Below, in pieces: positions 10,553 to 32,592 of a stretch of DNA of 32,592 nt. Under the pieces are notes generated by a model. That model searched no databases. It was not told where the DNA came from and saw only the letters and a list, made by a program, of their open reading frames with translations. How positions within the stretch are numbered: the stretch's first letter is position 1; each line of letters starts with the position of its first letter. Where the stretch lies: the sequence record PQ400057.1. One strand, written 5' to 3'. The stretch is from a phage. The position numbers and the translations under genes were made by a program.

Positions 10553-10556
10553 ATAA

Positions 10557-15400: not shown

Positions 15401-15413
15401 ATTTCAGAGTCTA

Positions 15414-16337
15414 TCAGAAGTTCGAATCGATTACTTTCTGTTCGACTTGACGACGATAGTTGGCATCTGTGCGATACCGAGGGTCACTCATAGCTTTAAT
15501 CATCTCGCTACGGTCCGCAAAGCCTTCACGCTTGGTAGCCTGAGGTTTAGCCGGAATAGCACGATTAGTTACACTACGAGTTGGCTTACGACCAAATGCC
15601 TTAGCGCGAGACTCACCAGCCAAGTTGATGATAGCCTTAACGGTCGCTAAGTCACGATTGGTCAGAGCATTGTCCAGCGACTGTGCAGCCTCAGGGTTGT
15701 GCGTCTCAAGGTGATTATACAGTGCGTCAAAGCGTTCACGACCACCAGCGTACTCAATGACACTGTTTACGTACTGCTCCACCAGAGCTTCTTGACCACG
15801 AATGTATGAGTCAATGAAAGCCTTCGTGTAGCCAATTTCAGCCAGCTTAGCGTAGGACTCAGCGGACAACTCTTCGTTCTCCTCGTACTCACGCTGGATA
15901 GCCTCAATGGTCTCGACACTCATTCCACGCTCGGCAGCAATGTTAATCATCTCTTGGAAGCCTTCTTCGTGCTCGCCAAGTTGCTCAGAGGCAGCTACCA
16001 GTTCTTCTGGGGTCTCACCCAGTGGGGTAAACTCTTCGGAACCTTCGGTGCCCTCAACGCCTTCTTCTCCAGTGTCCACATCGGTCGGCTCTGAACCATC
16101 ACCAATACGAACCTGAATGCGCCCCTCATCGTCCTCTTGACCGAACGGGTCAGAGTTGTCATACAGGTCACGTTCTGTTTCCACTTCGTCGGACGCTAAC
16201 TCGATTGCATCATCGCCATCACGGGCAGCAACATCAAGAGCCAGCATGTTCTGCTCATGTTCCTCAACGGAACCACCAGACATCACAGCGGAGTTCACGC
16301 CAAAAGATGCATATACGTCTGCATTAGATTCAGCCAT
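15414..16337 (-). CDS. 9: capsid assembly (scaffolding) protein
   Basis: The 307-aa acidic ORF MAESNADVYASFGVNSAVMSGGSVEEHEQNMLALD... matches T7 gp9. Confidence 0.95.
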   Translation of the reverse strand: MAESNADVYASFGVNSAVMSGGSVEEHEQNMLALDVAARDGDDAIELASDEVETERDLYDNSDPFGQEDDEGRIQVRIGDGSEPTDVDTGEEGVEGTEGSEEFTPLGETPEELVAASEQLGEHEEGFQEMINIAAERGMSVETIEAIQREYEENEELSAESYAKLAEIGYTKAFIDSYIRGQEALVEQYVNSVIEYAGGRERFDALYNHLETHNPEAAQSLDNALTNRDLATVKAIINLAGESRAKAFGRKPTRSVTNRAIPAKPQATKREGFADRSEMIKAMSDPRYRTDANYRRQVEQKVIDSNF

Positions 16338-16416
16338 TATTATTGTCTCCTTAAAGTTGAACTACAGGAAGACCGAGTACTCCAACCTCTTGTCATCGCT
16401 CATTTCAAAGATGAGG

Positions 16417-16439
16417 TCTCCCTATAGTGAGTCGTATTA
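16417..16439 (-). promoter_or_regulatory. phage RNAP promoter phi9 (class III consensus)
   Basis: The reverse complement is TAATACGACTCACTATAGGGAGA, upstream of gene 9 and overlapping the gene 8 stop. Confidence 0.85.
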
Positions 16440-18047: not shown

Positions 18048-18061
18048 GTGTCACCTCCTGA

Positions 18062-18364
18062 TTAAATATTGATGCCGCCACCGGAGCTACGAGCCACACT
18101 CAAGGATTTCTTACCACCAGCACGGGCTTTCTTACGTCCGCTTTCGGTCTGTGCTTCGTCCTCAGTGGAGACCTCTTTCTCAGGTACGTCAACAATCTGT
18201 GCAGCAGGAGTTGCAGCAGCCTGTGGCACTTCCACTACCTGCGCTTCACCAGCGCCACCAGCCAGACCACTGGCAACCTGTTTAACCGGACGAGCCACTT
18301 CCTTAACGACTTTCTTAACGGACTTAGTGACTTTCTTCACGGCCTTCTTGACTTTCTTACCCAT
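18062..18364 (-). CDS. 7.3: tail/host-range protein 7.3
   Basis: The 100-aa Lys-rich ORF MGKKVKKAVKKVTKSVKKVVKE... matches T7 gp7.3. Confidence 0.85.
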   Translation of the reverse strand: MGKKVKKAVKKVTKSVKKVVKEVARPVKQVASGLAGGAGEAQVVEVPQAAATPAAQIVDVPEKEVSTEDEAQTESGRKKARAGGKKSLSVARSSGGGINI

Positions 18365-18367
18365 AAC

Positions 18368-18769
18368 TTATACCTCCTTAAAGTATACACGCATTGTCTC
18401 GCCTTCATGTTTACAGCGGGACACCCAATTGCAATCGTGGAGTTCTGCAAGGTTCTTAAAGCGTTTCGCTATGAATCGCTGTAAGCCCTTAGAGTCTGCC
18501 TCAGGATTAATAACAACGGACGTTATATCCAGAATGTCTCCTTTGTGGTGAATGTCACAGCTTACGCACCACGCGAAGTACGCTACATGTTTTCCGGTAG
18601 AGTCCAGAATGTACTCTTCACGACAACCGGACATGTCCATTACTTCGTCTACGTAGAGGCTGTAGCCCACAAAGTGTCCTTCGAATCCTTTAGGCAACCC
18701 AAGGTGCTCTACAGTCCACCGGATTGCACGGAAGCGACTCTTGGCCTCCACACATGTGAACGCAGACAT
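18368..18769 (-). CDS. 7: gene 7 protein (host range / virion)
   Basis: MSAFTCVEAKSRFRAIRWTVEHLGLPKGFEGHF... (133 aa from the ATG at 18769) matches T7 gp7. Confidence 0.85.
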   Translation of the reverse strand: MSAFTCVEAKSRFRAIRWTVEHLGLPKGFEGHFVGYSLYVDEVMDMSGCREEYILDSTGKHVAYFAWCVSCDIHHKGDILDITSVVINPEADSKGLQRFIAKRFKNLAELHDCNWVSRCKHEGETMRVYFKEV

Positions 18770-19035
18770 CACTTCTTGCCTCCAAATGCGGACTTACGGA
18801 TTGAAGATTTCATACGAGCGGAGCCATTGCCGCTGGCTTTAGACTTCGCTACGGAATCATCGCGTTCGACCTTGAGGTCTTTGCGTCCAGACACTTCGGT
18901 GCCTTCGGTATCCGTCTCATCAGAAGACCCACCGAACTCTACGCCAGACACTTCTTGGGTCAGTGGCGCTGGCTCAACGGCTCGAATCTGATTGGTATCC
19001 ATCTTCGGAACTTTAACTTTCGGTGAGAAACACAT
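18769..19035 (-). CDS. 6.7: virion protein 6.7
   Basis: The internal ATG at 19035 gives MCFSPKVKVPKMDTNQIRAVEPAPLTQEVSG... (88 aa), matching T7 gp6.7. GGGAGG is upstream. Confidence 0.8.
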   Translation of the reverse strand: MCFSPKVKVPKMDTNQIRAVEPAPLTQEVSGVEFGGSSDETDTEGTEVSGRKDLKVERDDSVAKSKASGNGSARMKSSIRKSAFGGKK

Positions 19036-19039
19036 AAGG

Positions 19040-19294
19040 TCAATCCTCCCCATCATCTCTTAGTTGTTCCTTGCGTAACTCAATCTCGTCAATGACGTTA
19101 GAGGCATACTGTAGGCCCTGAATGAAACCCAAGATGTGGGCTTCACTGCAACCATTGGCACGCATAAGTCCTATATGACCAGACGCTTCGAGGTACGCAT
19201 AGTTGAATCGAACCTGTAGATACTCAGCGGTTGCACGAGGTACATCTGGAATATCGTTAGGGTTCTTAAGTAAATGGTTAATAGGTGTTAGCAT
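19040..19294 (-). CDS. 6.5: gene 6.5 protein
   Basis: The 84-aa [33 protein letters not shown]... matches T7 gp6.5. Confidence 0.85.
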
Positions 19295-19348
19295 AATAAA
19301 GATTCCTCTTAGAGTTAAATCTTAAAGTAATAATCATAAAGGCCCCTA

Positions 19349-19371
19349 TCTCCCTATAGTGAGTCGTATTA
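19349..19371 (-). promoter_or_regulatory. phage RNAP promoter phi6.5 (class III consensus)
   Basis: The reverse complement is TAATACGACTCACTATAGGGAGA, upstream of gene 6.5. Confidence 0.85.
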
Positions 19372-19391
19372 ATTTAGGGACCTTGAGTTTA

Positions 19392-19505
19392 TCACTTAGT
19401 GTCGTGTAACGACTTGATTATTCGGGCTAAGTCCCAAAGGCCCCACGCAATGAGGCACACTCCGAGACCACAAAGACCAAGACCAATATACGCTACGGTC
19501 TCCAC
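19392..19505 (-). CDS. 6.3: small membrane protein 6.3 (37 aa)
   Basis: A short ORF (GTG start, AAGGAG 8 nt upstream) encodes ...YIGLGLCGLGVCLIAWGLWDLARIIKSLHDTK, resembling T7 gp6.3, between genes 6 and 6.5. The start codon is uncertain. Confidence 0.5.
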   Translation of the reverse strand: METVAYIGLGLCGLGVCLIAWGLWDLARIIKSLHDTK

Positions 19506-20395
19506 AGGTAAATCTCCTTGTCAATAAAGTTGTACTCGTTGAACCGGAGGATGCGAGCCATCTGGCCCTGCTTGATAATATCCTCTTCAGTCATACCAGC
19601 CTTAGCACCAATGGACTTAATGCAGTCCCAAAGCGTCTCATGAGGCTCAGGGTCGCGTTTAACCCATTTAGTGACCTCTTGGCCTTTGTTCTTGCCAGAC
19701 TTAAGCACAGACGTTTTAGGCTCGGTTATGAACGGGTTATTCAAGAAGTCCTCGGCAGTGTCTCCCCACCCAGCAATCCCTGAGTAACCATCGGTGATGT
19801 CACCTTTGATTGTCTGGAAGAGGTGCCACCAGTCAGCGGACTCTTCTGTCTGAGTAAGGATGTTACCAGTGGTACACCACAGGAAGTCACAGTTAGGTAT
19901 GGTCTTAAAGTCCTTATCGCACGAGATGATTACAGCCTTACGAGCACCGAATGCAGACGGATTGGAGGCAATAACTCCCATAACGTCATCACCCTCAAGC
20001 ATAGGCTCACGGATGCAATAGAACTCTTCGCGCTCAAAGAGAGCCTCAAGGAACTCAAAGTAACCTACAGGTTTCTTAGTTGCCTTACGGTTGGCCTTGT
20101 AGTTAGGGTCCACGAGTTCCTTACGCCAGTTCACACTATCGGTGAACGCAAGGACAATCGGAGCGCCTACCCAAGCCTTCTTGCGGGTCTCGTAGGACTT
20201 GATGGAATCCTCAAGAATCTGACGGGCCTTAGCGTGGTCACAGCAGCGGTGCCAAATCTCTTCCTCCCATGAGGCATCAAACTCAGCAGCACTCATTGCT
20301 TGGAAGACCAGCCAGTCACCGTCCATCACGAGGATACCCTTGTCATCACAGCCTTCGCGTAACTCATAAAATTGTTTAAGGTCAAGAAGTGCCAT
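19493..20395 (-). CDS. 6: 5'-3' exonuclease
   Basis: The 300-aa ORF MALLDLKQFYELREGCDDKGILVMDGDWLVFQAM... matches T7 gp6. Confidence 0.95.
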   Translation of the reverse strand: MALLDLKQFYELREGCDDKGILVMDGDWLVFQAMSAAEFDASWEEEIWHRCCDHAKARQILEDSIKSYETRKKAWVGAPIVLAFTDSVNWRKELVDPNYKANRKATKKPVGYFEFLEALFEREEFYCIREPMLEGDDVMGVIASNPSAFGARKAVIISCDKDFKTIPNCDFLWCTTGNILTQTEESADWWHLFQTIKGDITDGYSGIAGWGDTAEDFLNNPFITEPKTSVLKSGKNKGQEVTKWVKRDPEPHETLWDCIKSIGAKAGMTEEDIIKQGQMARILRFNEYNFIDKEIYLWRP

Positions 20396-20540
20396 TAAGT
20401 TTCTCCTCTAGCTCAGCCACGTATTCGTCAGCCTCCATCAGTTGATTCTTAAGGCTATCGTTCTCACGTTCCAGAGAGTCGATGTAGCCCTGCATATCGT
20501 TCCACGCATCGCGAGGAATTGTTACAGTGTCACGCACCAT
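20382..20540 (-). CDS. 5.9: RecBCD inhibitor 5.9
   Basis: The internal ATG at 20540 gives MVRDTVTIPRDAWNDMQGYIDSLERENDSLKNQLMEADEYVAELEEKLNGTS (52 aa), matching T7 gp5.9. The track ORF starts at an upstream TTG. Confidence 0.8.
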   Translation of the reverse strand: MVRDTVTIPRDAWNDMQGYIDSLERENDSLKNQLMEADEYVAELEEKLNGTS

Positions 20541-20749
20541 CAGACACACCCTCCCATACGTTTCAGAAAGCGAGTACCAGAAGCCGTGATTTCCCAAGCG
20601 CCACCATTACGTCCACTCGTAGTCAGACACGAGATGTGACCACGGGATGCGGCCTCAGCTACGAGGCTCGCGTTGTTACGTACATAGTTTGACTGGAAAG
20701 TCTTAGGGCAACTTTTGATTGCTTGCAGCACTTTCAGGTAGTCAGACAT
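20540..20749 (-). CDS. 5.7: gene 5.7 protein
   Basis: The 69-aa ORF MSDYLKVLQAIKSCPKTFQSNYVRNNASLVAEAAS... matches T7 gp5.7. Confidence 0.85.
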   Translation of the reverse strand: MSDYLKVLQAIKSCPKTFQSNYVRNNASLVAEAASRGHISCLTTSGRNGGAWEITASGTRFLKRMGGCV

Positions 20750-21048
20750 CAGAACACCTCCCGTACTGTTGCAGGAGATAGCTTGAAGGAGTCCTTATCT
20801 GAATACTCTTCGTGCATGTCCTTGATTGCCTCACGGAATGCTGTACGTACTACGAATGTCATCAAGCCTTCCATACCGTATGTCAGGAACTGGACAATCA
20901 TTTCCTTCTGTTTACCATTGGGGACAATTGCACCAGAGCCTACCTGCTTACACAGGTGCAGCATGTCTTTCTCTAAGATTGCCTGAACGTCAGACGACAT
21001 CTTGGCGGTAACGTCGAAGGACACTTTAAATTTCTTTGTCATAGCCAT
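20749..21048 (-). CDS. 5.5: gene 5.5 protein (H-NS binding in T7)
   Basis: The internal ATG at 21048 gives MAMTKKFKVSFDVTAKMSSDVQAILEKDMLHLCKQ... (99 aa), matching T7 gp5.5. GGAG is upstream. Confidence 0.85.
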   Translation of the reverse strand: MAMTKKFKVSFDVTAKMSSDVQAILEKDMLHLCKQVGSGAIVPNGKQKEMIVQFLTYGMEGLMTFVVRTAFREAIKDMHEEYSDKDSFKLSPATVREVF

Positions 21049-21067
21049 AATAATTTCTCCTATAGAA

Positions 21068-23182
21068 TTAGTGACATACAGCCCAATTAGGACCCATCTT
21101 ACCTTCGGTATCCAGAAGGCAACGGAAGTTCCAGTGGTCTCCAACCCAGCGCATTGCTTCTTGTGCTGTCTCAATGACAACCTGAGCAATCTCTTCGGTA
21201 CGGCAACCTACTTGTATTTCGTCATGTACCCATGCCATGTACGCAAAGTCCCCATCCCAGCCGTGCTTCAAGCCTTTCGCTACGAGCATCTCTTCGGTCT
21301 TGATAATCCAAAGTTTGCAGATGAGAGCACCAGCAGATTGCAGTAGGGTATTCAGGGCAGCGTGAGGACTACGAACGTGTACCTTACGACCATCCAGACC
21401 TTTAATCCAGCGGCGTTTCCACTTGACTTGTTGCTCACCAGCTACCCACTGAGAGGACTCGACAAGTGTCTGTTGGATAGACTCGCGGAGTGCTGCAATC
21501 GCAGGGGTGTTCTCAAGGAATTTCTTCTTGAGTTCCTTACCGCGCTCTTTACCAGCACCAACAATCTGTCCAATCTTCTCATCACCAGCACCATAAAGGA
21601 ACCCATAGATGAACGTCTTGGCGTTATCGCGGGTAGGCAATTCGGCAGCCATCTGGTTCTTAGTATGGATGTCACCGTTAAGAATCTCGTGGGCGTACTC
21701 ACCGTTATCAAAGCGAGCCATAAAGTGGGCTAAGCAGCGTAGCTCCAGACCGGATGCGTCGATGCCAGCCTGAACCCAAGGCTTACCAGTTAATCCATCC
21801 AAATGATGCTCAGCGCCAAAAGCAGCACGACACTGCTCCCCATAAGGAGAACGGACACCGGGTACCTGTGCTAGGTTAGGGAAAGCGTGAGTAGCGCGCC
21901 CAGTAACAGCGCCGTTGGGATTAACAGAACCATGAATCTTACCGTCCTCAGCAACGTAACGAAGCCATGCCTTGTCTCCCTCAGCAGCCTGTCCTATTCG
22001 CTTCTGAATCATCAAGTATTCTTTAATGAGGTCGATGGCAGCTTGCTTCTCAGGGTCATCTACACGTACTCCTTCGAGTACCTCATCGTCCACCACAGGT
22101 GCACCCTTATCGGTGTGCTTGGTCGGGACCCATCCAGCCTCTTGGAGTTTCTTCTGAATGTGGTCACGAGACGATGGGTTAAACACCACGTGCTCAACTG
22201 GGGTGTAAGGAGCACCAGCAACGTACTCTCGGGTATCCAGTTCGCAAGGCTCACGGCCTTCTCGCTGTGCCTTGTTCTTAGGCTTCTTAAAGATACCACC
22301 AACTTTAGGTGTCTTAATGCGAGGGTATTTAGGCAGTGGCTTGCCGGTCCTCGGATGGCAGAACATTTCGGTGCCACCTTTAGGTTGATACCATGAGCCG
22401 AACGTTTCTGTCAGCTTACGGAGCAACTCAGAGCGACGGGCAGCTAACTCTACGTACAACTCCTCGATTGCCTTAGCGTCAAATGGGAAACCATTACGCT
22501 CCTGTTTAGCCAACAACCAAGCTGCTCTATGTTCAACATCAACAGCTTCGATAGAGTCTTTCCAAAAGATTATAGCATCATAATTAACGTGCTCTAAACC
22601 TAAAGGGAAATAGTGTTTGTCAGAGAGTAGCTTCTCAAGGAGAGCCTTAGTGACCACAACGTCCTGAACGTTATAGGCCATCATCTCTTCGTTGAAGTTC
22701 CACCACTCCATTCCGTCAACGTATTCTTCACCCTGCTCTTCAAGCATACGCTTAAAGTCATCCTTGTATTCACCTTTCATTTCACCTAAGCGATAACCCC
22801 ACGCCTCCAGAGCGTGAGACCCAAAGCGTTTCCCCGGCAACTTACCTGAACGCAGAAGACCCATATCGGTGTCTTTCAGGTTGGAATGAATCAAGCGTGA
22901 CAGCACAAGGGTGTCAATACAGTTCTCACGAGGAAGGTGGAACTCTCGGTTCAATTGTAACTTTGCCAGTTTGGTCAATGCAGGAACGTCATACTTGTGA
23001 CCGTTGTGGAACACAATAAGACCGCCTCGTGCAACCTCGGCTTCCAGCGCATCCAGATACGCACCGAAGTCACTCGGACGGTAGCTTACGTACTCAGCGG
23101 TGGAGTAGTCGTAGATAACCCCGCAGTGGAACTTAGTGACGCTCTCTAAGAGGGCGTTAGCTTCGATGTCAGAAACGATCAT
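21068..23182 (-). CDS. 5: DNA polymerase (family A)
   Basis: The 704-aa ORF MIVSDIEANALLESVTKFHCGVIYDYSTAEYVSYRPSDF... matches T7 gp5. Confidence 0.95.
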   Translation of the reverse strand: MIVSDIEANALLESVTKFHCGVIYDYSTAEYVSYRPSDFGAYLDALEAEVARGGLIVFHNGHKYDVPALTKLAKLQLNREFHLPRENCIDTLVLSRLIHSNLKDTDMGLLRSGKLPGKRFGSHALEAWGYRLGEMKGEYKDDFKRMLEEQGEEYVDGMEWWNFNEEMMAYNVQDVVVTKALLEKLLSDKHYFPLGLEHVNYDAIIFWKDSIEAVDVEHRAAWLLAKQERNGFPFDAKAIEELYVELAARRSELLRKLTETFGSWYQPKGGTEMFCHPRTGKPLPKYPRIKTPKVGGIFKKPKNKAQREGREPCELDTREYVAGAPYTPVEHVVFNPSSRDHIQKKLQEAGWVPTKHTDKGAPVVDDEVLEGVRVDDPEKQAAIDLIKEYLMIQKRIGQAAEGDKAWLRYVAEDGKIHGSVNPNGAVTGRATHAFPNLAQVPGVRSPYGEQCRAAFGAEHHLDGLTGKPWVQAGIDASGLELRCLAHFMARFDNGEYAHEILNGDIHTKNQMAAELPTRDNAKTFIYGFLYGAGDEKIGQIVGAGKERGKELKKKFLENTPAIAALRESIQQTLVESSQWVAGEQQVKWKRRWIKGLDGRKVHVRSPHAALNTLLQSAGALICKLWIIKTEEMLVAKGLKHGWDGDFAYMAWVHDEIQVGCRTEEIAQVVIETAQEAMRWVGDHWNFRCLLDTEGKMGPNWAVCH

Positions 23183-23200
23183 ATTGATTTCTCCTGTTGA

Positions 23201-23608
23201 TTATTGTAACTTAACAATCTCTGCATATGAGACAACTGTCAAGAAACCTGTGTGAATCATATCGGTCTTATAGGCAACGATTGCACCTTGCGGGTTAACA
23301 CCGTTGATGTATGACACTTGTGCAAATTTGCCACTCACTGAGCGTACATAGCCATAGCCACCACAGACTCCAGTGTCAACCTTGACCCAATCTCCAGCCT
23401 TGATGTGGGTCATAGTGTCCTTATCGAACACCTTATGACTCAGCTTGGTAACTTCTGGTTTCTTCCAGCCAGTCTGTCTTGTCCAAGTCCAGCCTAAGTT
23501 CTTCAAGATATGAACAGCGGAGCGAGTCTTAGCTTCATGGTACTTAACGTCCTCAAGTTCAGCTTCCAGCTTAGCGATTTCTGCTTGGATAACTTTAGGG
23601 TCACGCAT
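23201..23608 (-). CDS. 4.7: gene 4.7 protein
   Basis: The internal ATG at 23608 gives MRDPKVIQAEIAKLEAELEDVKYHEAKTRSAVHIL... (135 aa), matching T7 gp4.7. Confidence 0.8.
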   Translation of the reverse strand: MRDPKVIQAEIAKLEAELEDVKYHEAKTRSAVHILKNLGWTWTRQTGWKKPEVTKLSHKVFDKDTMTHIKAGDWVKVDTGVCGGYGYVRSVSGKFAQVSYINGVNPQGAIVAYKTDMIHTGFLTVVSYAEIVKLQ

Positions 23609-23613
23609 GATAA

Positions 23614-23637
23614 TATCTCCTATAGTGAGTCGAATAG
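23614..23637 (-). promoter_or_regulatory. phage RNAP promoter phi4.7-like (class II variant)
   Basis: The reverse complement is CTATTCGACTCACTATAGGAGATA, with the core GACTCACTATAGGAGA and weaker upstream positions. It is immediately 5' of gene 4.7. Confidence 0.6.
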
Positions 23638-23681
23638 TATTCATGAAGGCCACCACTTTGGCGACCTTGGGTATACCACTC

Positions 23682-23951
23682 TTAGCTATCAATCTTGTCG
23701 AGGATAACCATAGCTTCATCTACGCGACCAGCTTCATGGATTGCTGTCACGGCAGCTTTGGTAAGCGCATTGACCAGACGCAGTGCTTGCTCATCTGTCA
23801 ACGTCATACGCTGAGTGTGATTCTTAGAGGACTTAGAGTCCTTCCAGCGGTAAACCATAGTCGCCTTACCGTTGCGAACGTTGATGTGGACTCGACGGTT
23901 CCACTGGTCAGCGGTATCGGATAGACGGATAGTTTCAGCTACGTTTGACAT
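23682..23951 (-). CDS. 4.5: gene 4.5 protein
   Basis: The 89-aa ORF MSNVAETIRLSDTADQWNRRVHINVRNGKATMVYRWKD... matches T7 gp4.5. Confidence 0.85.
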   Translation of the reverse strand: MSNVAETIRLSDTADQWNRRVHINVRNGKATMVYRWKDSKSSKNHTQRMTLTDEQALRLVNALTKAAVTAIHEAGRVDEAMVILDKIDS

Positions 23952-23971
23952 AATGGGTTTCTCCTGTTTGA

Positions 23972-24184
23972 TTACTCAAATAATTTGGAAAGCTGTTGAG
24001 CTTGGTTTGCTACGCGGGCAGCTTCTGTAACTTTATTGGATGCACTGTCAGCCAGTTCGTTGGAGCGAATCGCTAGTGCGCGTGACTGTGTGGCCTCTTT
24101 ACGAGCCTCATCGTTCAGCCGCTTGGCTTCCACGTTATACATACGAACCAGTAGTTGGCCTAATTTCTTAATCAGTTTGAACAT
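23972..24184 (-). CDS. 4.3: gene 4.3 protein
   Basis: The 70-aa ORF MFKLIKKLGQLLVRMYNVEAKRLNDEARKEATQSRALAIR... matches T7 gp4.3. Confidence 0.85.
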   Translation of the reverse strand: MFKLIKKLGQLLVRMYNVEAKRLNDEARKEATQSRALAIRSNELADSASNKVTEAARVANQAQQLSKLFE

Positions 24185-24188
24185 GGGT

Positions 24189-24211
24189 GTCTCCTTTAGT
24201 GAGTCGTATTG
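24189..24211 (-). promoter_or_regulatory. phage RNAP promoter phi4.3 (class II)
   Basis: The reverse complement is CAATACGACTCACTAAAGGAGAC, directly upstream of gene 4.3. Confidence 0.75.
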
Positions 24212-24229
24212 AAATCGTCAAGAATCCTG

Positions 24230-25936
<1,707 letters not shown>

Positions 25937-25998
25937 TCAAGTTAGACATGGCCTCTATAGCTTCCTCCTTGTGTTGAAAGAAAGGGAAACCGTTGTGG

Positions 25999-26021
25999 TC
26001 TCCCTTTAGTGAGTTCAATTA
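25999..26021 (-). promoter_or_regulatory. phage RNAP promoter phi3.8-type (class II) with the same GGGAGACCACAACGGTTTCCC leader as phi10
   Basis: The reverse complement is TAATTGAACTCACTAAAGGGAGACCACAACGGTTTCCC, lying between gene 3.5 and gene 4. No gene 3.8 follows it here. Confidence 0.75.
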
Positions 26022-26022
26022 A

Positions 26023-26478
26023 TTATCCACGGTCAGAAGTGACCAGTTCGTTCTTCTCCCACCAACGCTTAAGGTCGAACGATGGGCAAGCCTTAGGTGC
26101 CACATCGTGATGTGCGCGAAGAACAGCGCCTTCGTACTTAGCCAGAAGTGTGACAAGCAGTGAGCGGAGGGATTGCATTTGGGCTGGCGTAAAGTTAGCG
26201 TCGAACTTGCCTTTATCGTCGATACCGCCTACAAGGCAGACACCAATAGAGTTGTGGTTGTAACCCTTAGCGTGAGAGCCTACAGCCATCTCATCTCGGC
26301 CTTCCTCCACAGTACCATCGCGCTTGATGATAAAGTGATATCCCACATCGAGCCAACCTTGCTCTTTGTGCCACTGGCGAATCTCACGGACACCAACATT
26401 CTGACTCGGCTTGGTAGCAGAGCAGTGAACAAAGATTGCGTCGGTAGATTCACGTTGTTTAAACTGTACACGAGCCAT
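26023..26478 (-). CDS. 3.5: lysozyme (N-acetylmuramoyl-L-alanine amidase; in T7 also an inhibitor of the phage RNAP)
   Basis: The 151-aa ORF MARVQFKQRESTDAIFVHCSATKPSQNVGVREIRQWHKEQGW... matches T7 gp3.5. Confidence 0.95.
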   Translation of the reverse strand: MARVQFKQRESTDAIFVHCSATKPSQNVGVREIRQWHKEQGWLDVGYHFIIKRDGTVEEGRDEMAVGSHAKGYNHNSIGVCLVGGIDDKGKFDANFTPAQMQSLRSLLVTLLAKYEGAVLRAHHDVAPKACPSFDLKRWWEKNELVTSDRG

Positions 26479-26933
26479 TATTTCTTTCCTCCCTTCGATT
26501 GTTTCAGCTTGTCAAATGGCACCTCCTTTTTGGGTTCTTTGAGCCATTCTACAGGAATTAATTTGTCAGCAAACAGAATACCATGCTTCTCACACCATTC
26601 ACCGTAACTGGTCGGAGACCCTTTGTACAGCTTGGTGCGCGAGCTTGAGAACACCAGTCGGATGTCCAGTTCAGGAAACTGTTCGCGAATCAATAAGTGT
26701 TTCTTTCGGTCGTCACTCTCCCATAAACCTTTGGTTTCAATAAAGATTCCGTTAGGCAGCAGGAAGTCTGGAGTATACACATGGTTGCTCGCAGGGACAA
26801 CGTAAGGGATTTTCCACAGTTCATAGTCGAACTTAATTCCCTTACCCTCTAGCTGCTTAGAGACCTTATCTTCTAGGCCGGAACGGAATGTCCCGACCTT
26901 TCTGATACCACGCGCAGCGTATGCGCCAGCCAC
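26478..26933 (-). CDS. 3: endonuclease I (Holliday junction resolvase)
   Basis: The 151-aa ORF MAGAYAARGIRKVGTFRSGLEDKVSKQLEGKGIKFDYE... matches T7 gp3. It overlaps 3.5 by TAATG. Confidence 0.95.
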   Translation of the reverse strand: MAGAYAARGIRKVGTFRSGLEDKVSKQLEGKGIKFDYELWKIPYVVPASNHVYTPDFLLPNGIFIETKGLWESDDRKKHLLIREQFPELDIRLVFSSSRTKLYKGSPTSYGEWCEKHGILFADKLIPVEWLKEPKKEVPFDKLKQSKGGKK

Positions 26934-27632
26934 TTAGAAGTCTCCGTCTGAGTCTTCTTCGTAAGAGCCTTCGTCGTCTTCGTCCCAGCTTTCTTCGTCG
27001 CGTGGTTTGCTCGCTTTGGCAGAACCAGAGGCAACATAGCCGTTCTCTTCAACTTCGTCAGCCCAATCGTCTTCACCACCACCAAAGGTAGCCAGTTCGA
27101 CCAGCATTACGGATTCCAGTTGCAGCTTAACGCTCGCACCTACAGCAGTGTTCCACTTGTACGGAACCAGAGAGTATTTGACTTTCAGTTTAGAGCCACC
27201 ACCGATAATCGGAACGTCTTCCATCTTCTTACCTTTGGAGTCAACCACAACAAGATTGATGTGCTTGGTCTCTTTGGTCTTCTTGTCTTGGAAAGACGCG
27301 TAGCATTTGAACTTAAAGGTAGTCGTACCGTCACCGTTATCGAAGAACGGCATGTCACCTTCATACGGTTTCAGCGGTTTCTTACCACGAGCTACCGCAG
27401 GCGGGTTCGCTTCGTATTCCTCAACGGCAGCAGCATAAGCCTCTTCGTGACACTTCACGATTTCATCGACCATGCGTTGGCAGCGCGGGTCTTTGTTGGG
27501 AATAGTCAGGTCAACTTTGTAGACACCGCGAGGGTTCCCAAAGCCACGCTCTTCGTTACCGTAGTCAGGCTTAGAGATGTAAGCGTAAGGTTCAGCAGTG
27601 CCCAGCGCAGAGGTGAAAATCTTCTTAGCCAT
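26934..27632 (-). CDS. 2.5: single-stranded DNA-binding protein
   Basis: The internal ATG at 27632 gives MAKKIFTSALGTAEPYAYISKPDYGNEERGFGNPRG..., with an acidic C-terminal tail ending DGDF, matching T7 gp2.5 (232 aa). Confidence 0.95.
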   Translation of the reverse strand: MAKKIFTSALGTAEPYAYISKPDYGNEERGFGNPRGVYKVDLTIPNKDPRCQRMVDEIVKCHEEAYAAAVEEYEANPPAVARGKKPLKPYEGDMPFFDNGDGTTTFKFKCYASFQDKKTKETKHINLVVVDSKGKKMEDVPIIGGGSKLKVKYSLVPYKWNTAVGASVKLQLESVMLVELATFGGGEDDWADEVEENGYVASGSAKASKPRDEESWDEDDEGSYEEDSDGDF

Positions 27633-27677
27633 AATATTAATCTCCTTTAGGTTTCGTTTGTTTCTCAAAGGGAGTCT

Positions 27678-27697
27678 TCTCCCAATAGTGAGTCGTA

Positions 27698-27700
<3 letters not shown>
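27678..27700 (-). promoter_or_regulatory. phage RNAP promoter phi2.5
   Basis: The reverse complement is TAATACGACTCACTATTGGGAGA (-1 is T instead of A), overlapping the end of gene 2 and upstream of gene 2.5. Confidence 0.8.
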
Positions 27701-28005
<305 letters not shown>

Positions 28006-28016
<11 letters not shown>

Positions 28017-28545
28017 AGCACTTATCCTTATGTTTCTCATACAGTTCACCATAGAATCCAGCTTTCGCCATGTCTTTCTCTAAGTAAGCCAGTTCTGACT
28101 TCTTACCAGCGCGTAGGCGGTACTTAAGGATGTTCCCTAAGCAATATCCTTTGAACTGCTCACGAGTCATTGAACGGGCAATCACTTCGATAGCCTCAAT
28201 GTCGTCGAACAGCATGTAATGGGAAGGCTTAGTGACACCTTCAATTGACTCAGCGGAAGGCTGGTCATCTGTCGGAGTTACCTCAAGTTTATTCAGATGA
28301 GGCTTACGCGGGTCCATCGCTCGGATTTCACCTAAGGTTATCTTTTGATCATTGTTTGCGGGGCAGAGGTGGCAAGGGACATTTGAGCAGAGCATCCCGC
28401 AGCCATTCAAATCATCCGGGCGACCATCGTTATTGTCTACCAACTTCATGATCATCTCTTGTTCACGTTCGGTCATACTGTTAGCTCCTTTATTACAGGT
28501 GTGTGGATAACGGTCGTCTTTCTCTAAGCAAGCTATGCATCCCAT
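28006..28545 (-). CDS. 1.7: gene 1.7 protein (nucleotide kinase in T7)
   Basis: The 179-aa [53 protein letters not shown]... matches the T7 gp1.7 core. Confidence 0.85.
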
Positions 28546-28805
28546 CAGAACACCTCCTTGATACGTTTGAGTAACAGACGGACGAACGGGAAGCGGGTCA
28601 CTGCCACACTAAGAACCGGACGTTTCTTGTCTATTGCTTTCTCAAAGTCACCACGGGTGATAATGATGTGGACGCTCGGTGCCAGAGGAACTGTGTTACC
28701 AATGAGAGGTAACTTAGCTCGGCGCTCGCTCGCACATACGATTGAACGGTCAGCACGGCGAACCGTGAAATTCTCAAGACTTTTGTTGTAATGAAGTCGA
28801 AACAT
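28545..28805 (-). CDS. 1.6: gene 1.6 protein
   Basis: The 86-aa [43 protein letters not shown]... matches T7 gp1.6. Confidence 0.85.
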
Positions 28806-28810
28806 ATGGT

Positions 28811-28833
28811 GTCTCCTTTAGTGAGTCGTATTA
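28811..28833 (-). promoter_or_regulatory. phage RNAP promoter phi1.6 (class II)
   Basis: The reverse complement is TAATACGACTCACTAAAGGAGAC, immediately upstream of gene 1.6. Confidence 0.8.
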
Positions 28834-28920
28834 GGCGTGACCATCTGGCATATCGTCATCACTACAGTGGAGCGAAAGGCATCCTATGATGACAATGAGT
28901 AATGGCATTAAGTACATCAT
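28831..28920 (-). CDS. 1.5: gene 1.5 protein (29 aa)
   Basis: A small ORF MMYLMPLLIVIIGCLSLHCSDDDMPDGHA, with AAGGAGG 8 nt upstream, sits between phi1.5 and phi1.6. It is not on the ORF track. Confidence 0.55.
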   Translation of the reverse strand: MMYLMPLLIVIIGCLSLHCSDDDMPDGHA

Positions 28921-28926
28921 GATGTG

Positions 28927-28949
28927 TACCTCCTTTAGTGAGTCGTATT
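28927..28949 (-). promoter_or_regulatory. phage RNAP promoter phi1.5 (class II)
   Basis: The reverse complement is TAATACGACTCACTAAAGGAGGTAC; it is the first promoter encountered from the genome left end. Confidence 0.8.
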
Positions 28950-28987
28950 AAACGCAGAAAAGCCCACCCTAAGGTGAGCCAGTGTGT

Positions 28988-30007
28988 TTACATCTTCTCT
29001 TGAGGGTTGTCCTCGGTGCCACGGAAGCAGGTGAAGGAGGGGTGTCTGAGACTCCCATCGTTAGTTACCTCCATAAATCCAATCTGGCAAGCCCAGCCAT
29101 TATAGTAGTCCTCGCCATGTTCTTTAACGTTAGCTGTAAATTCATCCATTAAGGCGCGAGAGATGTTATTGGCATCGACAAGACGACCAGTCTCAAGAAG
29201 CACCTTGAATCCAATTACCTTACCTTCGTTAGCAAGTCCTTCTGTTCCCCAGTTTACACCATTAATGATTCCGTCAGCTTCCTCAAGAGGCTTAAGTTTC
29301 CACCAGCCGGACTTCTTACCGCGCTTGTAGATGCACATCGGGTCTTTCACAATGAGACCCTCATGTCCTTCTTCACGCTTCTTCTCGTACAGTTGCTGTA
29401 GTTCTACCATATCGTAGACCTCGTAAGACTCAGCCGCTTGCCATTCGATTTCAGGGAAGTATTCCTGTAGCAGAGGCAGCATGTTCTTAACGTGTTCCTG
29501 CATGAGCAACGTCATGACATCACAGTCTTCCCCAGACTCCACGATGTGCAGAGGGAGGATAGCGTACAGTCGGACACTCAGATGTTTGGTATCCAACGCG
29601 AACTCAACCTTGGACCCCTTGAGTGGTGGTACACCGCCAACGTCGAACTCAAAGTTATTCTTGTTGAGCCACTTGGTACGCAGTAGGCCGGACCCTGTGT
29701 TAAAGTCTACGCCCTTGACCATTAGTTCCCCATCGAGCATAAAGCCATCCTTGTAGAAACAACGGTCATCGTTAAGCAGACGCTTCCAGCGAACATCAAA
29801 CCCGTTTAAGTGCTCCAGTGCCGGAATCGTTTTAGATACACGAGAGAGCCAGCAACTGTTAGCTGTATTGTCTACGCAGATGTTACCGCGCACACCATCG
29901 TACTTAATGTCAGCGATAAGATACCCAGCGTTATCCAGAGCTTTCTTAATGGCAGACTCTACGAAAGATACTGCCTTGTATGGTGAAGTCTTAAAGTTAA
30001 TAATCAT
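28988..30007 (-). CDS. 1.3: ATP-dependent DNA ligase
   Basis: The 339-aa ORF MIINFKTSPYKAVSFVESAIKKALDNAGYLIADIKYDGVRG... has the ligase KxDG adenylation motif and matches T7 gp1.3. GAGG is 8 nt upstream of the ATG. Confidence 0.95.
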   Translation of the reverse strand: MIINFKTSPYKAVSFVESAIKKALDNAGYLIADIKYDGVRGNICVDNTANSCWLSRVSKTIPALEHLNGFDVRWKRLLNDDRCFYKDGFMLDGELMVKGVDFNTGSGLLRTKWLNKNNFEFDVGGVPPLKGSKVEFALDTKHLSVRLYAILPLHIVESGEDCDVMTLLMQEHVKNMLPLLQEYFPEIEWQAAESYEVYDMVELQQLYEKKREEGHEGLIVKDPMCIYKRGKKSGWWKLKPLEEADGIINGVNWGTEGLANEGKVIGFKVLLETGRLVDANNISRALMDEFTANVKEHGEDYYNGWACQIGFMEVTNDGSLRHPSFTCFRGTEDNPQEKM

Positions 30008-30408
30008 ATGTATTTCCTCAGTTTGCCATTTCGTATGTAGTGTATTGTTGAAGCAGCCACATTAAGTGCCCTTGCTAGCTCCCTGCCGGAGCGAGGGTCC
30101 GTCCGTATCATATCGACCTGCTCATTAGTTATCTTTCTAGCACCACGGCCTTTGATAGCCATGTCTCTAAGGTTGTCTGCCTGTGTGCCCTTGGTTAGAT
30201 GTGCAGGATTTACACACCACCTATTGTCACAGGAGTGTAGGACTATATCGCTCTTATTCAACTCACCGTTGAACAGAATGTACGAAGCCCTATGGGCATA
30301 TATAGGCTTACCATGCAGGCGGAACCGTCCGTAACCATTGGGCTGGATACTACCAATCCAACGGGACAAGAAGAGACACCAAAAGGTAAACCCAAGGGTC
30401 AACCCCAA
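30004..30408 (-). CDS. HNH (His-Me finger, HNH_3-like) endonuclease ORF; no canonical start, open frame runs into the terminal repeat, possibly 5'-truncated or a pseudogene
   Basis: The translation ...NGYGRFRLHGKPIYAHRASYILFNGELNKSDIVLHSCDNRWCVNPAHLTKGTQADNLRDMAIKG contains the GYGRF...AHR...HxCDN..C.NP.HL core. The first in-frame ATG is downstream of the catalytic motif; the track start is a TTG inside the repeat with no SD. The stop overlaps the ligase ATG (ATGA). Confidence 0.55.
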   Translation of the reverse strand: MGLTLGFTFWCLFLSRWIGSIQPNGYGRFRLHGKPIYAHRASYILFNGELNKSDIVLHSCDNRWCVNPAHLTKGTQADNLRDMAIKGRGARKITNEQVDMIRTDPRSGRELARALNVAASTIHYIRNGKLRKYI

Positions 30409-30507
30409 CCCTTAGGGACCCTCAAAGTCAACTGAAAGTTGACTCAAGGTGATTGGCTGGACTTTAGGGACCCCTATGGGGGAACTTTAGGTCCGTAAAC
30501 TGTGAGA
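30361..30507. repeat. terminal repeat homolog (single copy in this circular-style window); concatemer junction at about 30507/30508
   Basis: The reverse complement starts TCTCACAGTTTACGGACCTAAAGTTCCCCCATAGGGG...GTCAACTTTCAGTTGAC...GGGTTGGGGTTGACCCTTGGGTTT..., colinear with the 160-bp T7 terminal repeat (TCTCACAGTGTACGGACCTAAAG...), and is preceded by ...AAAATCTGAGTGACTA as at the T7 right end. The inner boundary is approximate. Confidence 0.7.
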
Positions 30508-30747
30508 TAGTCACTCAGATTTTTATGGTATATTTTAAAGGACCCTCTAGGAACTCCCTATGCCCTCTCTAAGACCCTCTTTAGGTTCCACTGATAGGAG
30601 GGCCTATCTTTAGGTATAGACCTTACGGATAGACCATTAGAGGCTCTTTATGGGTATACCTTAAGACTTGACTCTATAGGGATGAAGTGGTGTGATGCAA
30701 TCATACCGCTGAATCCCTCGGTGAGCCATCAGTCGGTCAGGAAGACC

Positions 30748-30897
30748 CTAATCGCTACAAGTGAGTAGAGAGCAAACTGTAGACTCCAGTGAACTGAGGT
30801 CTCCAGTAAGAGATGCGTACCCAAGGGCAGCACAAAGTACCACAAGAAATCGGTAGGTGACTCTATGCCGCAACAAGGTCAACAATAAGCGGAACAT
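30748..30897 (-). CDS. 19.5: gene 19.5 protein (49 aa)
   Basis: The ORF MFRLLLTLLRHRVTYRFLVVLCAALGYASLTGDLSSLESTVCSLLTCSD, with AAAGGAGGG upstream, lies downstream of phiOR and matches T7 gp19.5. It is not on the ORF track. Confidence 0.7.
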   Translation of the reverse strand: MFRLLLTLLRHRVTYRFLVVLCAALGYASLTGDLSSLESTVCSLLTCSD

Positions 30898-31051
30898 GAG
30901 TCTCCCTCCTTTATGTTGGTCTTTAAGTTAAGGTGATATTAATACAATATAATCACCATTCTTGGAGGTCACTTTAGGTACACCATTATGCATACTTTAT
31001 GCACTCTATAAGTATTCATTCAGTATCTATATAGTAACCTTTCGTCCCTCC

Positions 31052-31074
31052 TCTCCCTATAGTGAGTCGTATTA
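31052..31074 (-). promoter_or_regulatory. phage RNAP promoter phiOR (class III consensus) near the genome right end
   Basis: The reverse complement is TAATACGACTCACTATAGGGAGA, between gene 19 and gene 19.5. Confidence 0.8.
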
Positions 31075-31155
31075 ATTTATCGTGTCTTTTCAGTAACTTA
31101 AAGAACTGACCATCCGTGGTCTATAGTGCATCCCTATGCAGTCTCAGTGAATAAA

Positions 31156-32592
31156 TCACCACTCAATGAAAGACGTACCGTAACCCTCATCGTCCTCAGA
31201 GTATACATCAACTCCTCCCACAGACATCTCAATGATGTGCGTAGCAGCGACCGTAGGGCGCATCATGTGCTCCTCAAGGAAGTCAGCAAGCACTTCACCT
31301 TCTACCTTAACGGAATCCAACTGCATGGACTCGCGGAGATACTCAATGCCTAACGCAAGGGCATCCAATCGGTCATCATGTGCCAGAGCGCCTTTCTCAC
31401 GAGTGATACGGGTCATCTGGTAGAACAGTGAATACTTAACGTCATGCTTACCGTCTACGTCACGAGCGGACTGGTAGTCGGCCCTAATGACCTCATCACG
31501 AATGACAAGGCGGTGAGTCTGCATGACTGGCTCAAGGGTATCACAAATACGCATCTCCTTCATACCACGAGCACGAATCTCCTCCATTGCACAGTTGTGG
31601 TGTTTAAGAAGGATAGGACTGAACACCTTACCAAACATGCCGTCACCGAAGTTACTCTCATAGACGACCGTCTGGACTCCCCATTGCTTAGCTTTCCTAG
31701 CGAGCAACTCAAGGGTCTTATCGGAGTAACCATCGCGGAAACCTCCAGCTTCCATTAGGTAGATGTAACCGTTCAGGGTGAACAGCACAGCGTAACCTGT
31801 TTCGTCCTTACCGCGACCACTAGGGTCAATGACCAGAATCTTCTGTTGGTACTGACCAGAGTTGTTGGAGCAATCATGGTAAGTATGCAGGTCATCACCC
31901 TTAAGGCCAACGTTAGGAAGGTCCTCAATGATGTTCTGACGGTTCGGAAGCCATTGGTAATGCATTGGAGCCTTCTCTAAGTCTAAGGCCGCTACGATAG
32001 CGTCACGGAGCCTCAGAGGGTACTTCTCGGCATCACTCAGGTTCGGGTTAAGCATGAACTGTAGTGTGAAGCCAGCCTTACCGTATTCCAACTCACGCTC
32101 ACGGAGGTCCTCTCGGTCGAAGCGCACAGGGTCCGTAGGAGTCCCGGCGAGGGCCTCAGGGTTCTCATCGTACTCAGCACGTAGCATAGGGGCAAGTCGC
32201 TGTGCGTAATAGAGGTTCTCTTCGCGAGTCCTTGGGTACAGAGCAGGCCAGATGATAGTGGTATACCCACGGTTATCCTCAAGTTCCTTATAGAGAGTCA
32301 TCTCGGTCTGAGGTGTGCCAAGGTAGATAACACGAGAGGAAGGCAGCGGTTTAAGCAACGCAGCGAACTCCTGAACTAGAGTCCATAGCTTCTCACGGGC
32401 ACCCATAGTCGCACTGTTAGACGGAATCTCAACATCATCCGCAATGATAATGTCAGCACGGCTACCAGTTAACTGACCAGTGATACCTACCGATTTTACA
32501 CTAGGAGAGTGGTCAGGGTTAGCTGGACCTACATCAAAGCTAATTACAGAATCACGCTGTCCGGGTCTTGGCTTCAATTCAGCAAGGAAAGG
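31156..32592 (-). CDS. 19: terminase large subunit (DNA maturase B), C-terminal part; 5' portion is at window start (1..323)
   Basis: The ORF is open to the window edge and ends ...[17 protein letters not shown], matching the T7 gp19 C-terminus. Upstream codons at the edge ([14 protein letters not shown]) continue the window-start fragment (...[10 protein letters not shown]), with one nucleotide missing across the join. Confidence 0.95.

What the first reader, a model, noticed from the sequence alone, without database searches (positions are those of the whole stretch)
30004..30507. HNH endonuclease ORF that begins inside the terminal repeat and lacks any start codon: likely the scar of the early-region loss
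The HNH catalytic core is intact, but reading upstream the frame runs straight into the conserved terminal repeat. There is no ATG or GTG before the motif and no Shine-Dalgarno. HNH_3 proteins normally have about 25 more N-terminal residues. The simplest reading is that one deletion endpoint lies inside an HNH gene that once sat between gene 1.2 and ligase, with the other endpoint at the inner edge of the terminal repeat. Alternatively a non-canonical start is used.
Basis: partly seen in the sequence, partly recalled or inferred. Interest (0 to 1): 0.6.

Follow-up and report, generated by a model that had tools for sequence, protein, structure and literature searches.

The report
Truncated HNH gene at deletion junction
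This is the dead 3' remnant of a mobile HNH endonuclease gene in a T7-like phage genome, marking where 6.5 kb of early genes, including the phage RNA polymerase, are missing from the assembled sequence.

Summary
On the minus strand, 30004-30363 encodes codons 19-137 of a 137-aa HNH_3 endonuclease. Relatives (Bas104, ESh1, ESh3, WW2, two Logan contigs) carry this gene intact between gene 1.2 and DNA ligase.

Homology to every relative stops at 30363. Upstream lies the single terminal repeat (30507-30363), complete except for its last base. The gap equals Bas104 3579-10129 (6551 bp): all class I genes, RNA polymerase, the early promoter region and the phi1.3 promoter. Class II/III genes are intact and collinear.

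The remnant has no ATG or GTG, only TTGs inside a repeat hairpin. It lacks 18 residues, not about 25, including a Cys invariant in 63 homologues. I read it as a pseudogene scar.

The left breakpoint lies 1 nt from the physical genome end, with at most 1 nt of microhomology. So a DNA end was joined to an internal break. Whether this happened in vivo or during library preparation or assembly cannot be settled without reads. I favour in vivo, about 0.6, which gives an RNA-polymerase-dependent deletion genome. The window is a closed circle missing one base at a synonymous site, so the junction is probably inside the assembled path.

Ordinary in kind, modest interest.

The parts
30004..30363 (-). 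3' remnant of a free-standing HNH_3 homing-type endonuclease gene: codons 19-137 plus the stop. The stop overlaps the ligase ATG (ATGA).
   Evidence: 98% nucleotide identity to Bas104 10130-10593, beginning at codon 19 of its 137-aa endonuclease CDS 10076-10489. Pfam HNH_3 and PHROG HNH matches.
30363..30507 (-). Single copy of the direct terminal repeat, 145 nt, lacking only its final T.
   Evidence: Alignment with the right ends of the linear T7, 13a and phiA1122 records, and with the Bas104 junction. Megablast matches to the TR of many Teseptimavirus records end at 30363.
30362..30363 (-). Novel junction: TR ...CTTGTCCC | GTTGGATT... HNH codon 19. At most 1 nt (C) is shared between the two parental sequences.
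   Evidence: The 40-mer spanning the junction is absent from viral, metagenome and genome contig collections. No phage, plasmid or E. coli record spans it.
30364..30408 (-). Fifteen TR-derived codons fused in frame to the HNH remnant, with TTG codons at 30408, 30402 and 30369. The upstream stop TAA lies at 30414-30412.
30391..30416 (-). 10-bp hairpin within the TR, followed by a T-rich tract (terminator-like). It sequesters the SD-like TAAGGG and the first two TTG codons.
   Evidence: region MFE -40.1 kcal/mol, z -2.6.
28988..30007 (-). DNA ligase (gene 1.3), intact. In this sequence it is the first complete gene after the TR. Its usual phi1.3 promoter is deleted.
   Evidence: 90% amino-acid identity to Bas104 ligase over its full length. 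The Bas104 phi1.3-like promoter at about 10050 lies inside the missing interval.
28928..28950 (-). First T7-type promoter after the left end (phi1.5-like), 1557 nt from the TR start.
   Evidence: No sigma-70-like site between 30507 and 28440.
31052..31074 (-). phiOR-type perfect T7 consensus promoter upstream of gene 19.5. It is the only detected promoter that could transcribe the remnant, by read-through across the TR in concatemers.
30748..30897 (-). Gene 19.5, the last gene before the TR.
1..32592 (-). Whole window: a circularly closed T7-like genome without class I genes. The two ends abut inside terL with one base missing, at the third position of Leu codon 108.

Best explanation
The ORF is an inactive 5'-truncated remnant of a free-standing HNH_3 (His-Me finger) homing-type endonuclease gene. 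In the closest relatives this gene sits between gene 1.2 and the ligase gene.

A 6.55-kb segment is missing from the DNA that was assembled. It runs from 1 nt before the inner end of the terminal repeat to HNH codon 18. It comprises the whole early (class I) region, including the phage RNA polymerase gene.

One breakpoint is the physical end of mature phage DNA, and the two sides share at most 1 nt. The junction was therefore made by non-homologous joining, or template switching, between a genome right end and an internal break or 3' end inside the HNH gene. It was not made by the short-direct-repeat recombination that, from my recollection of the T7 literature, usually produces T7 deletions.

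The remnant has lost its promoter (phi1.3), its ATG, 18 residues, and an invariant Cys that I infer to be the first ligand of an I-PpoI-type CCCH zinc site. It is a scar, not a working gene.

The resulting genome keeps all class II/III genes and T7-consensus promoters. It could therefore multiply only where a T7-specificity RNA polymerase is supplied in trans, for example by a DE3-type host or a co-infecting helper.

Shown: the anatomy, the breakpoints, the lost residues, and the gene and promoter inventory.
Inferred: the in vivo origin, the dependence on polymerase in trans, and the zinc-ligand role.
For: Breakpoints:
- Homology to HNH-bearing relatives begins at window 30363 in every case.
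- TR homology ends at the same base, 1 nt short of the T7 and 13a ends.
- The missing interval equals Bas104 3579-10129.

Gene content:
- Nine of the ten Bas104 CDS lying wholly in the missing interval (0.3 to 1.2, including RNAP) have no tblastn hit in the window. The tenth, the HNH gene, survives only as the remnant. All class II/III essential genes are full length.
- Twelve T7-type promoters are retained, six of them perfect consensus.

State of the remnant:
- The HNH_3 domain is present, but C17 (invariant in 63 of 63 homologues) is lost. No homologue starts at the break.
- In the AF2 model of the full-length orthologue, residues 1-20 form a helix and a beta-hairpin with pLDDT 96. The best fold matches are I-PpoI and I-HmuI.
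- The TTG codons and the SD-like motif are buried in a TR hairpin.

Junction inside the assembled path:
- The window ends abut in terL with exactly one base missing, at a 4-fold degenerate codon position.
- That is what a circular assembly-graph path broken by one SNP bubble looks like. It places the junction inside an unbranched path.

Precedent:
- The T7 mutant D394-5904 has no left-end host promoters and has gene 1 moved downstream behind a lac promoter. Its genome entry is delayed, and gene 16 mutations that restore entry are readily selected (PMC3737178).
Against: - No reads are available, so the junction's support cannot be checked.
- A breakpoint exactly at the physical DNA end is also what an in vitro ligation chimera, or an end-to-end closure of a linear contig, would give.
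- The genome has no detectable promoter in the first 1557 nt. In T7 only about 1000 bp enter the cell without transcription (PMC3737178), so entry would be impaired.
- The window's gp16 carries no known fast-entry change (K825 is unchanged).
- The short-repeat array that follows the TR in relatives is also gone, with unknown effect on packaging.
- Neither the junction nor this strain is found in any public collection searched.
Confidence: 0.6

Rival explanations
1. The junction is an artefact. The real phage has an intact HNH gene and a full early region. The TR-end-to-HNH join was created by a library chimera (the physical right end ligated to another fragment), by mis-closure of a linear contig that ended at the true genome end and began at an arbitrary break, or by a later circularising or rotating step.
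For: - The left breakpoint is 1 nt from the physical end of mature DNA, where reads and contigs naturally stop.
- There is at most 1 nt of microhomology.
- A genome without RNA polymerase, early promoters and the primary origin is not autonomously viable.
- There is no promoter within the DNA that enters unaided (PMC3737178).
- Short-read assemblies of T7-like phages are known to mishandle terminal repeats and to come out rotated and reversed (PMC10438801).
Against: - The window's own ends lie in terL, not at the junction. They are separated by a single missing base at a synonymous site. This fits a graph cycle in which the junction is an internal, unbranched edge.
- A rare chimera should not out-compete the true TR-to-early-region path in an assembly.
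- A random contig break would not by itself produce a closed circle.
Confidence: 0.3
2. The fused ORF is expressed from an in-frame TTG (30408 or 30402) as a 132-134-aa N-terminally remodelled but active HNH endonuclease.
For: - The frame is open from the TR.
- TAAGGG lies 6 nt upstream of TTG 30402.
- A perfect phiOR promoter lies upstream.
- The ββα-Me residues and the C-terminal helical region are intact.
- By chance, a Cys occurs in the TR-derived part (WCLFLSRW).
Against: - The start codons and the SD-like motif are base-paired in a 10-bp hairpin that also looks like a terminator.
- The invariant Cys sits 3 residues before the conserved Trp in all 63 homologues, but 6 residues before it here.
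- The N-terminal helix and most of the first beta-hairpin of the fold are missing.
- The same TR sequence exists in all relatives without being coding.
Confidence: 0.05
3. The deletion was engineered deliberately, as an RNA-polymerase-less, biocontained T7-like phage propagated on a polymerase-supplying strain.
For: - Trans-complemented T7 deletion phages are in common use. One example is T7 lacking the DNA polymerase gene, grown on a complementing plasmid (PMC13236587). Another is D394-5904.
- The promoters here are exact T7 consensus, so T7 RNA polymerase would serve them.
Against: - The right end of the deletion falls at codon 19 of a gene, not at a gene boundary.
- It removes the phi1.3 promoter and all left-end non-coding DNA, including any promoter for entry. 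A designer would normally keep these.
- There is no scar, marker or vector sequence.
- The backbone is an undescribed wild-type-like strain, 92-93% identical to known phages.
Confidence: 0.05

Closest known systems
Free-standing HNH endonuclease between gene 1.2 and ligase in Escherichia phage Bas104 (XPK40403.1). Orthologues occur in Shigella phages ESh1 and ESh3, Yersinia phage WW2, and Logan contigs ERR9710127_2206 and SRR24155047_30427.
   Same: Same locus, directly upstream of and overlapping the ligase ATG. 98% nucleotide identity and about 94% amino-acid identity over codons 19-137. Same HNH_3 domain and C-terminal helical region.
   Different: The window copy lacks codons 1-18, its ATG and the phi1.3-type promoter, and is fused to the terminal repeat.
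T7 gp7.7 and other phage HNH_3 proteins (PF13392). Structural relatives: I-PpoI and I-HmuI.
   Same: About 40% identity to T7 gp7.7. Shares the invariant C...H...H-x-C-x4-C-x4-H...N pattern. The fold matches I-PpoI and I-HmuI.
   Different: All of these keep the N-terminal Cys (T7 gp7.7, from my memory of its sequence, starts only 3 residues before it). The window remnant starts 2 residues after it.
Laboratory T7 early-region deletion mutants: D394-5904 (4101 background) and the gene 1 deletion tester phage 4107.
   Same: Loss of gene 1 from its normal position and, in D394-5904, of all left-end host promoters. D394-5904 carries gene 1 downstream behind a lac promoter, whereas 4107 relies on polymerase from the host. 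Delayed, transcription-independent genome entry is compensable by gene 16 mutations (PMC3737178). The description of 4107 is from my own knowledge of the pET/DE3 literature.
   Different: The deletion here is larger. It starts at the last base of the TR, so it keeps none of the roughly 230 bp of left-end non-coding DNA retained in D394-5904. It also removes 1.1, 1.2 and phi1.3, and ends inside an HNH gene that T7 does not have. Its origin is unknown.
Classical spontaneous T7 deletions formed between short direct repeats (Studier and Masker laboratories; cited from my own knowledge).
   Same: Loss of non-essential early DNA is common, and was selected during experimental evolution of T7 (for example the 2.1-kb early deletion in PMC6042481).
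   Different: No direct repeat lies at the breakpoints (at most 1 nt shared). One breakpoint coincides with the genome terminus, and an essential gene is removed.

Membership tests
HNH_3 / His-Me finger homing-type endonuclease (PF13392) | Domain match above the curated Pfam threshold | tested here: met
   32.2 bits against a cut-off of 24.8, profile positions 2-46 of 46. PHROG HNH families score up to 6e-28.
HNH_3 / His-Me finger homing-type endonuclease (PF13392) | ββα-Me residues present (H61, N65/N70, H73, N82 in orthologue numbering) | tested here: met
   All invariant columns downstream of the break are conserved in the window sequence.
HNH_3 / His-Me finger homing-type endonuclease (PF13392) | Invariant N-terminal Cys (C17, CxxW), inferred to be the first ligand of a CCCH zinc site | tested here: not met
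   C17 is invariant in 63 of 63 homologues. The window's HNH-derived sequence starts at R19. The zinc-ligand role is inferred from the I-PpoI-like spacing and fold (plus my memory of I-PpoI C41/C100/C105/H110).
HNH_3 / His-Me finger homing-type endonuclease (PF13392) | Complete ORF with its own start codon and N-terminal helix and beta-hairpin | tested here: not met
   No ATG or GTG is present, and 18 residues are missing. Residues 1-20 are a confidently modelled part of the fold.
HNH_3 / His-Me finger homing-type endonuclease (PF13392) | Site-specific DNA cleavage and homing activity | not testable with these tools
   Only indirect evidence: a sporadic distribution. Orthologues at 80% amino-acid identity or more occur in 4 of 50,697 phage records.
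Teseptimavirus (T7-like, Autographiviridae) genome | Phage-encoded single-subunit RNA polymerase gene | tested here: not met
   Bas104 RNAP (883 aa) has no tblastn hit anywhere in the window.
Teseptimavirus (T7-like, Autographiviridae) genome | T7-type promoters and collinear class II/III genes | tested here: met
   Twelve promoters, six of them perfect consensus. Collinear with Bas104 at 90-96% identity.
Teseptimavirus (T7-like, Autographiviridae) genome | Direct terminal repeat flanked by the right-end and left-end non-coding regions | tested here: inconclusive
   One TR copy with a normal right-end flank is present. The left-end flank (short-repeat array, phiOL, A1-A3) is absent. The physical ends cannot be determined without reads.
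Deletion by recombination between short direct repeats | A direct repeat of several bp at both parental breakpoints, with one copy retained | tested here: not met
   Parental sequences are ...GTCCC|T ATCTG and ...GTTTGC|GTTGG, which share only C.
Trans-complemented T7 gene 1 deletion phage (4107 / D394-5904 type) | Growth only when T7 RNA polymerase is supplied in trans | not testable with these tools
   Inferred from the absence of gene 1 together with exact T7 consensus promoters.

The most novel reading that the evidence does not exclude
The contig is a genuine, replicating 'mini-T7' that is packaged and propagated. It would be a spontaneously arisen T7-like genome without RNA polymerase or early genes, acting as a parasite of polymerase supplied by a DE3-type host or a helper phage.

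It would have been created when a mature genome end (or polymerase run-off at the TR boundary) was joined to an aborted homing or repair intermediate inside the HNH gene.

If so, it would be a natural defective-interfering or satellite-like derivative of an autographivirus. It would also show that neither the left-end non-coding region nor any left-end promoter is needed for packaging and entry.
Probability: 0.2. Interest if true: 0.55.

Novelty: new member of a known kind. Interest (0 to 1): 0.3.

Why it matters
For annotation, the ORF should be labelled as a truncated HNH pseudogene, not as an endonuclease. The contig should be flagged as lacking about 6.5 kb, including the RNA polymerase gene, despite closing as a circle. 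Completeness tools that trust circularity would wrongly call it complete.

If the deletion is real, it gives a natural counterpart to the engineered T7 early-region deletions. It would also put a useful bound on what the left end of a T7-like genome must contain for packaging and entry.

If it is an artefact, it is a clean example of how a physical genome terminus can be mis-joined in a phage assembly.

Tried and rejected
1. Source of the sequence. The exact ligase protein is not on record. The junction 40-mer, a TR 21-mer and a strain-specific HNH 32-mer are absent from viral, metagenome and genome contig collections. There was no match in the E. coli complete genomes or PLSDB plasmids. The origin stays unknown.

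2. Recurrence of TR-to-internal-gene junctions. A scan of IMG/VR for a conserved TR 16-mer gave 20 loci. Only the reference genomes and one 39.4-kb contig were T7-like, and the TR homology in these loci reaches at most window 30363, never past it into the HNH region.

3. Microhomology or a direct repeat at the breakpoints. None beyond 1 nt. The repeat search around the junction found nothing relevant.

4. Compensatory fast-entry change in gp16. K825 is unchanged. The 38 window-unique substitutions against four relatives are uninformative, so this test is inconclusive.

5. Solved structure by sequence. None found. A fold search was needed instead.

6. Rfam found no RNA family in the window. The plus-strand ORFs in the region (30152-30334 and 30292-30435) lie antisense to the HNH remnant and the TR and were not pursued.

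7. Literature. I looked for a natural T7-like phage losing its early region on a polymerase-expressing host, and for the T7 pac requirements to the right of the TR. Nothing specific turned up in the open-access library.

8. Two ideas rejected on the evidence:
- The HNH is merely mis-started and has a short natural isoform. No homologue starts there.
- RNA polymerase has been relocated elsewhere in the genome. There is no hit anywhere in the window.

Full report
**What the window is**

All genes lie on the minus strand. The window is a T7-like (Teseptimavirus) genome, 92-93% identical at the nucleotide level to Escherichia phages Bas104, 13a and T7.

Its two ends meet inside the large terminase gene. 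When end and start are joined, they align to Bas104 with exactly one base missing. That base corresponds to Bas104 position 1349, the third position of a CTN leucine codon.

The window is therefore a circularly closed contig of about 32,593 bp. One missing base at a 4-fold degenerate site is what a circular assembly-graph path broken by a single SNP bubble would leave behind. That reading is an inference.

**Anatomy around the finding**

Reading the minus strand:
- terL ends at 31156.
- A perfect T7 consensus promoter (phiOR type) lies at 31074-31052.
- Gene 19.5 occupies 30897-30748.
- The terminal repeat (TR) begins with TCTCACAGT at 30507.
- The HNH reading frame runs to its stop at 30004.
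- The ligase gene (30007-28988) starts at an ATG that overlaps the HNH stop.

**Mapping the junction**

Megablast splits the region cleanly. Everything upstream of 30363 matches the right end and TR of many T7-like phages. Everything downstream matches only four records, which carry an HNH gene in front of the ligase gene.

- Local alignment to Bas104 puts the HNH match at Bas104 10130, which is codon 19 of its 137-aa endonuclease CDS 10076-10489. The TR match ends at Bas104 3578. Only one base (C, window 30363) is shared by the two matches.
- Two Logan contigs with the intact gene also begin to match at 30363.
- In the linear T7 and 13a records the repeat ends ...GTCCCT; in phiA1122 it ends ...GTCCCCT. 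The window reads ...GTCCC followed by GTTGGATT.

So the left breakpoint is 1 nt inside the inner edge of the repeat, which is the physical right end of mature DNA. The parental sequences share no more than 1 nt at the join.

**What is missing**

- The missing interval is Bas104 3579-10129, 6551 bp.
- Nine of the ten Bas104 CDS lying wholly in that interval have no tblastn hit anywhere in the window. These are a hypothetical protein, Ocr (0.3), three further small ORFs, the 0.7 kinase, RNA polymerase, 1.1 and 1.2. The tenth, the HNH gene, survives only as the remnant.
- Every class II and III gene from ligase to terL is full length and collinear.
- Twelve T7-type promoters remain, six of them identical to the T7 consensus.
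- The short-repeat array that follows the repeat in Bas104 and the phi1.3-type promoter in front of the HNH gene are gone. The left-end promoters (phiOL, A1-A3) and the primary origin lie in this interval in T7 (general knowledge), so I infer they are gone too.
- The first promoter after the repeat is at 28950, 1557 nt from the left end. No sigma-70-like site was found before 28439.

**State of the HNH remnant**

The product still matches Pfam HNH_3 above threshold over the whole profile and PHROG HNH families. Several things count against it being a working gene.

- The frame is closed by TAA at 30414-30412. It has no in-frame ATG or GTG before the motif, only TTG at 30408, 30402 and 30369.
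- A TAAGGG lies 6 nt before the second TTG. But it and the first two TTGs are paired in a 10-bp hairpin of the repeat, which also scores as terminator-like.
- In alignments of 25 and 63 homologues (136-224 aa), none begins at the break point. A Cys three residues before a conserved Trp (C17 in the orthologue) is invariant, and it is lost here.
- An AlphaFold model of the 98%-identical full-length orthologue P0001 has a mean pLDDT of 91. Residues 1-20 form a helix and a beta-hairpin at pLDDT 96. The deleted part therefore belongs to the fold.
- Foldseek's best solved matches are I-PpoI, I-HmuI and the Smad MH1 and NFI domains derived from them.
- The invariant pattern C17...C63-x4-C68-x4-H73 has the spacing of the first I-PpoI zinc site as I remember it. 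C17 is thus probably a zinc ligand. This step is inference.

I conclude that the remnant is a pseudogene.

**How the junction arose**

A breakpoint within 1 nt of the genome terminus is very unlikely for a random deletion. I estimate roughly 1 in 1000 for left endpoints that would remove gene 1. The lack of microhomology argues against the usual repeat-mediated T7 deletions. A DNA end was therefore joined to an internal break. There are two settings in which that could happen.

*In vivo.* A mature or nascent right end was ligated to, or switched template onto, a break inside the HNH gene. An aborted homing or repair intermediate is one conceivable source, but that is speculative. The result would be a genome that can grow only with T7-specificity RNA polymerase supplied in trans.

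There is a precedent. The engineered T7 D394-5904 has no left-end host promoters and carries gene 1 downstream behind a lac promoter. Its genome entry is delayed, and gene 16 mutations that restore entry are readily selected (PMC3737178). T7 also packages DNA that carries a T7 origin, a pac site and a terminal repeat (Chung and Hinkle 1990, as cited in PMC13236587).

*In vitro or in silico.* The join could be a ligation chimera or a mis-closure at the place where reads naturally stop.

I favour the in vivo reading, at about 0.6. The contig's own ends are elsewhere, in terL at a synonymous site, so the junction looks like an internal and unbranched part of the assembly path. A rare chimera should not displace the true path.

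The artefact remains a serious rival, at about 0.3. The genome as written has no promoter in the roughly 1 kb that enters unaided. It shows no known fast-entry change in gp16. It could not be found in any collection.

**Comparison with known systems**

The gene belongs to the known family of free-standing HNH_3 homing-type endonucleases. These are sporadically present at this locus: orthologues at 80% amino-acid identity or more occur in only 4 of 50,697 phage records. T7 gp7.7 is a paralogue at about 40% identity.

The remnant fails two membership features, the invariant Cys and a complete N-terminus. It should therefore be filed as a truncated relic of the family, not as a member in working order.

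The genome matches Teseptimavirus in everything except the hallmark RNA polymerase gene.

**Verdict**

The number of missing residues is 18, not about 25. A possible TTG start with an SD-like motif does exist but is unlikely to function.

The feature is ordinary in kind: a deletion scar and pseudogene. The only point of wider interest is the polymerase-less, terminus-joined genome it belongs to, and reads or a simple PCR would settle that question.

Noticed in passing
window 1 and 32592 (terL, minus strand): The window ends abut inside the large terminase gene with exactly one base missing. That base is the 4-fold degenerate third position of Leu codon 108. This suggests a circular assembly path broken at a single synonymous SNP, meaning a near-clonal but polymorphic population.
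   Followed up: partly
window 1403-2008 (-) and 1944-3620 (-): The tail fibre gp17 shares only its N-terminal ~330 residues (58% identity) with Bas104 and has a different C-terminal part. It is followed by a 201-aa Tfa-like tail fibre assembly protein (phrog_136, 1e-38), which T7 lacks. This looks like a receptor-binding module swap.
   Followed up: partly
window about 21223/21224 (DNA polymerase gene, minus strand): The HNH-containing insertion that interrupts the Bas104 DNA polymerase gene (Bas104 19927-20527) is absent here. The two phages therefore differ in their homing-endonuclease content at more than one locus.
   Followed up: no
window 20752-21048 (-): The gp5.5 (H-NS inhibitor) homologue is only 51% identical to that of Bas104, while its neighbouring genes are 92-100% identical. 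This is a locally diverged or exchanged gene.
   Followed up: no
window 30391-30416 (-), inside the terminal repeat: A conserved 10-bp GC-rich hairpin followed by a T-rich tract (terminator-like) lies within the terminal repeat. In T7, from my memory of its sequence, the equivalent position carries an ATG instead of the TTG seen here.
   Followed up: partly
window 28803-28950 (-), downstream of ligase: Small-ORF content between ligase and gene 1.7 differs from Bas104. Three Bas104 hypothetical CDS (11574-11729, 11873-11995 and 12810-13037) have no hit in the window.
   Followed up: no
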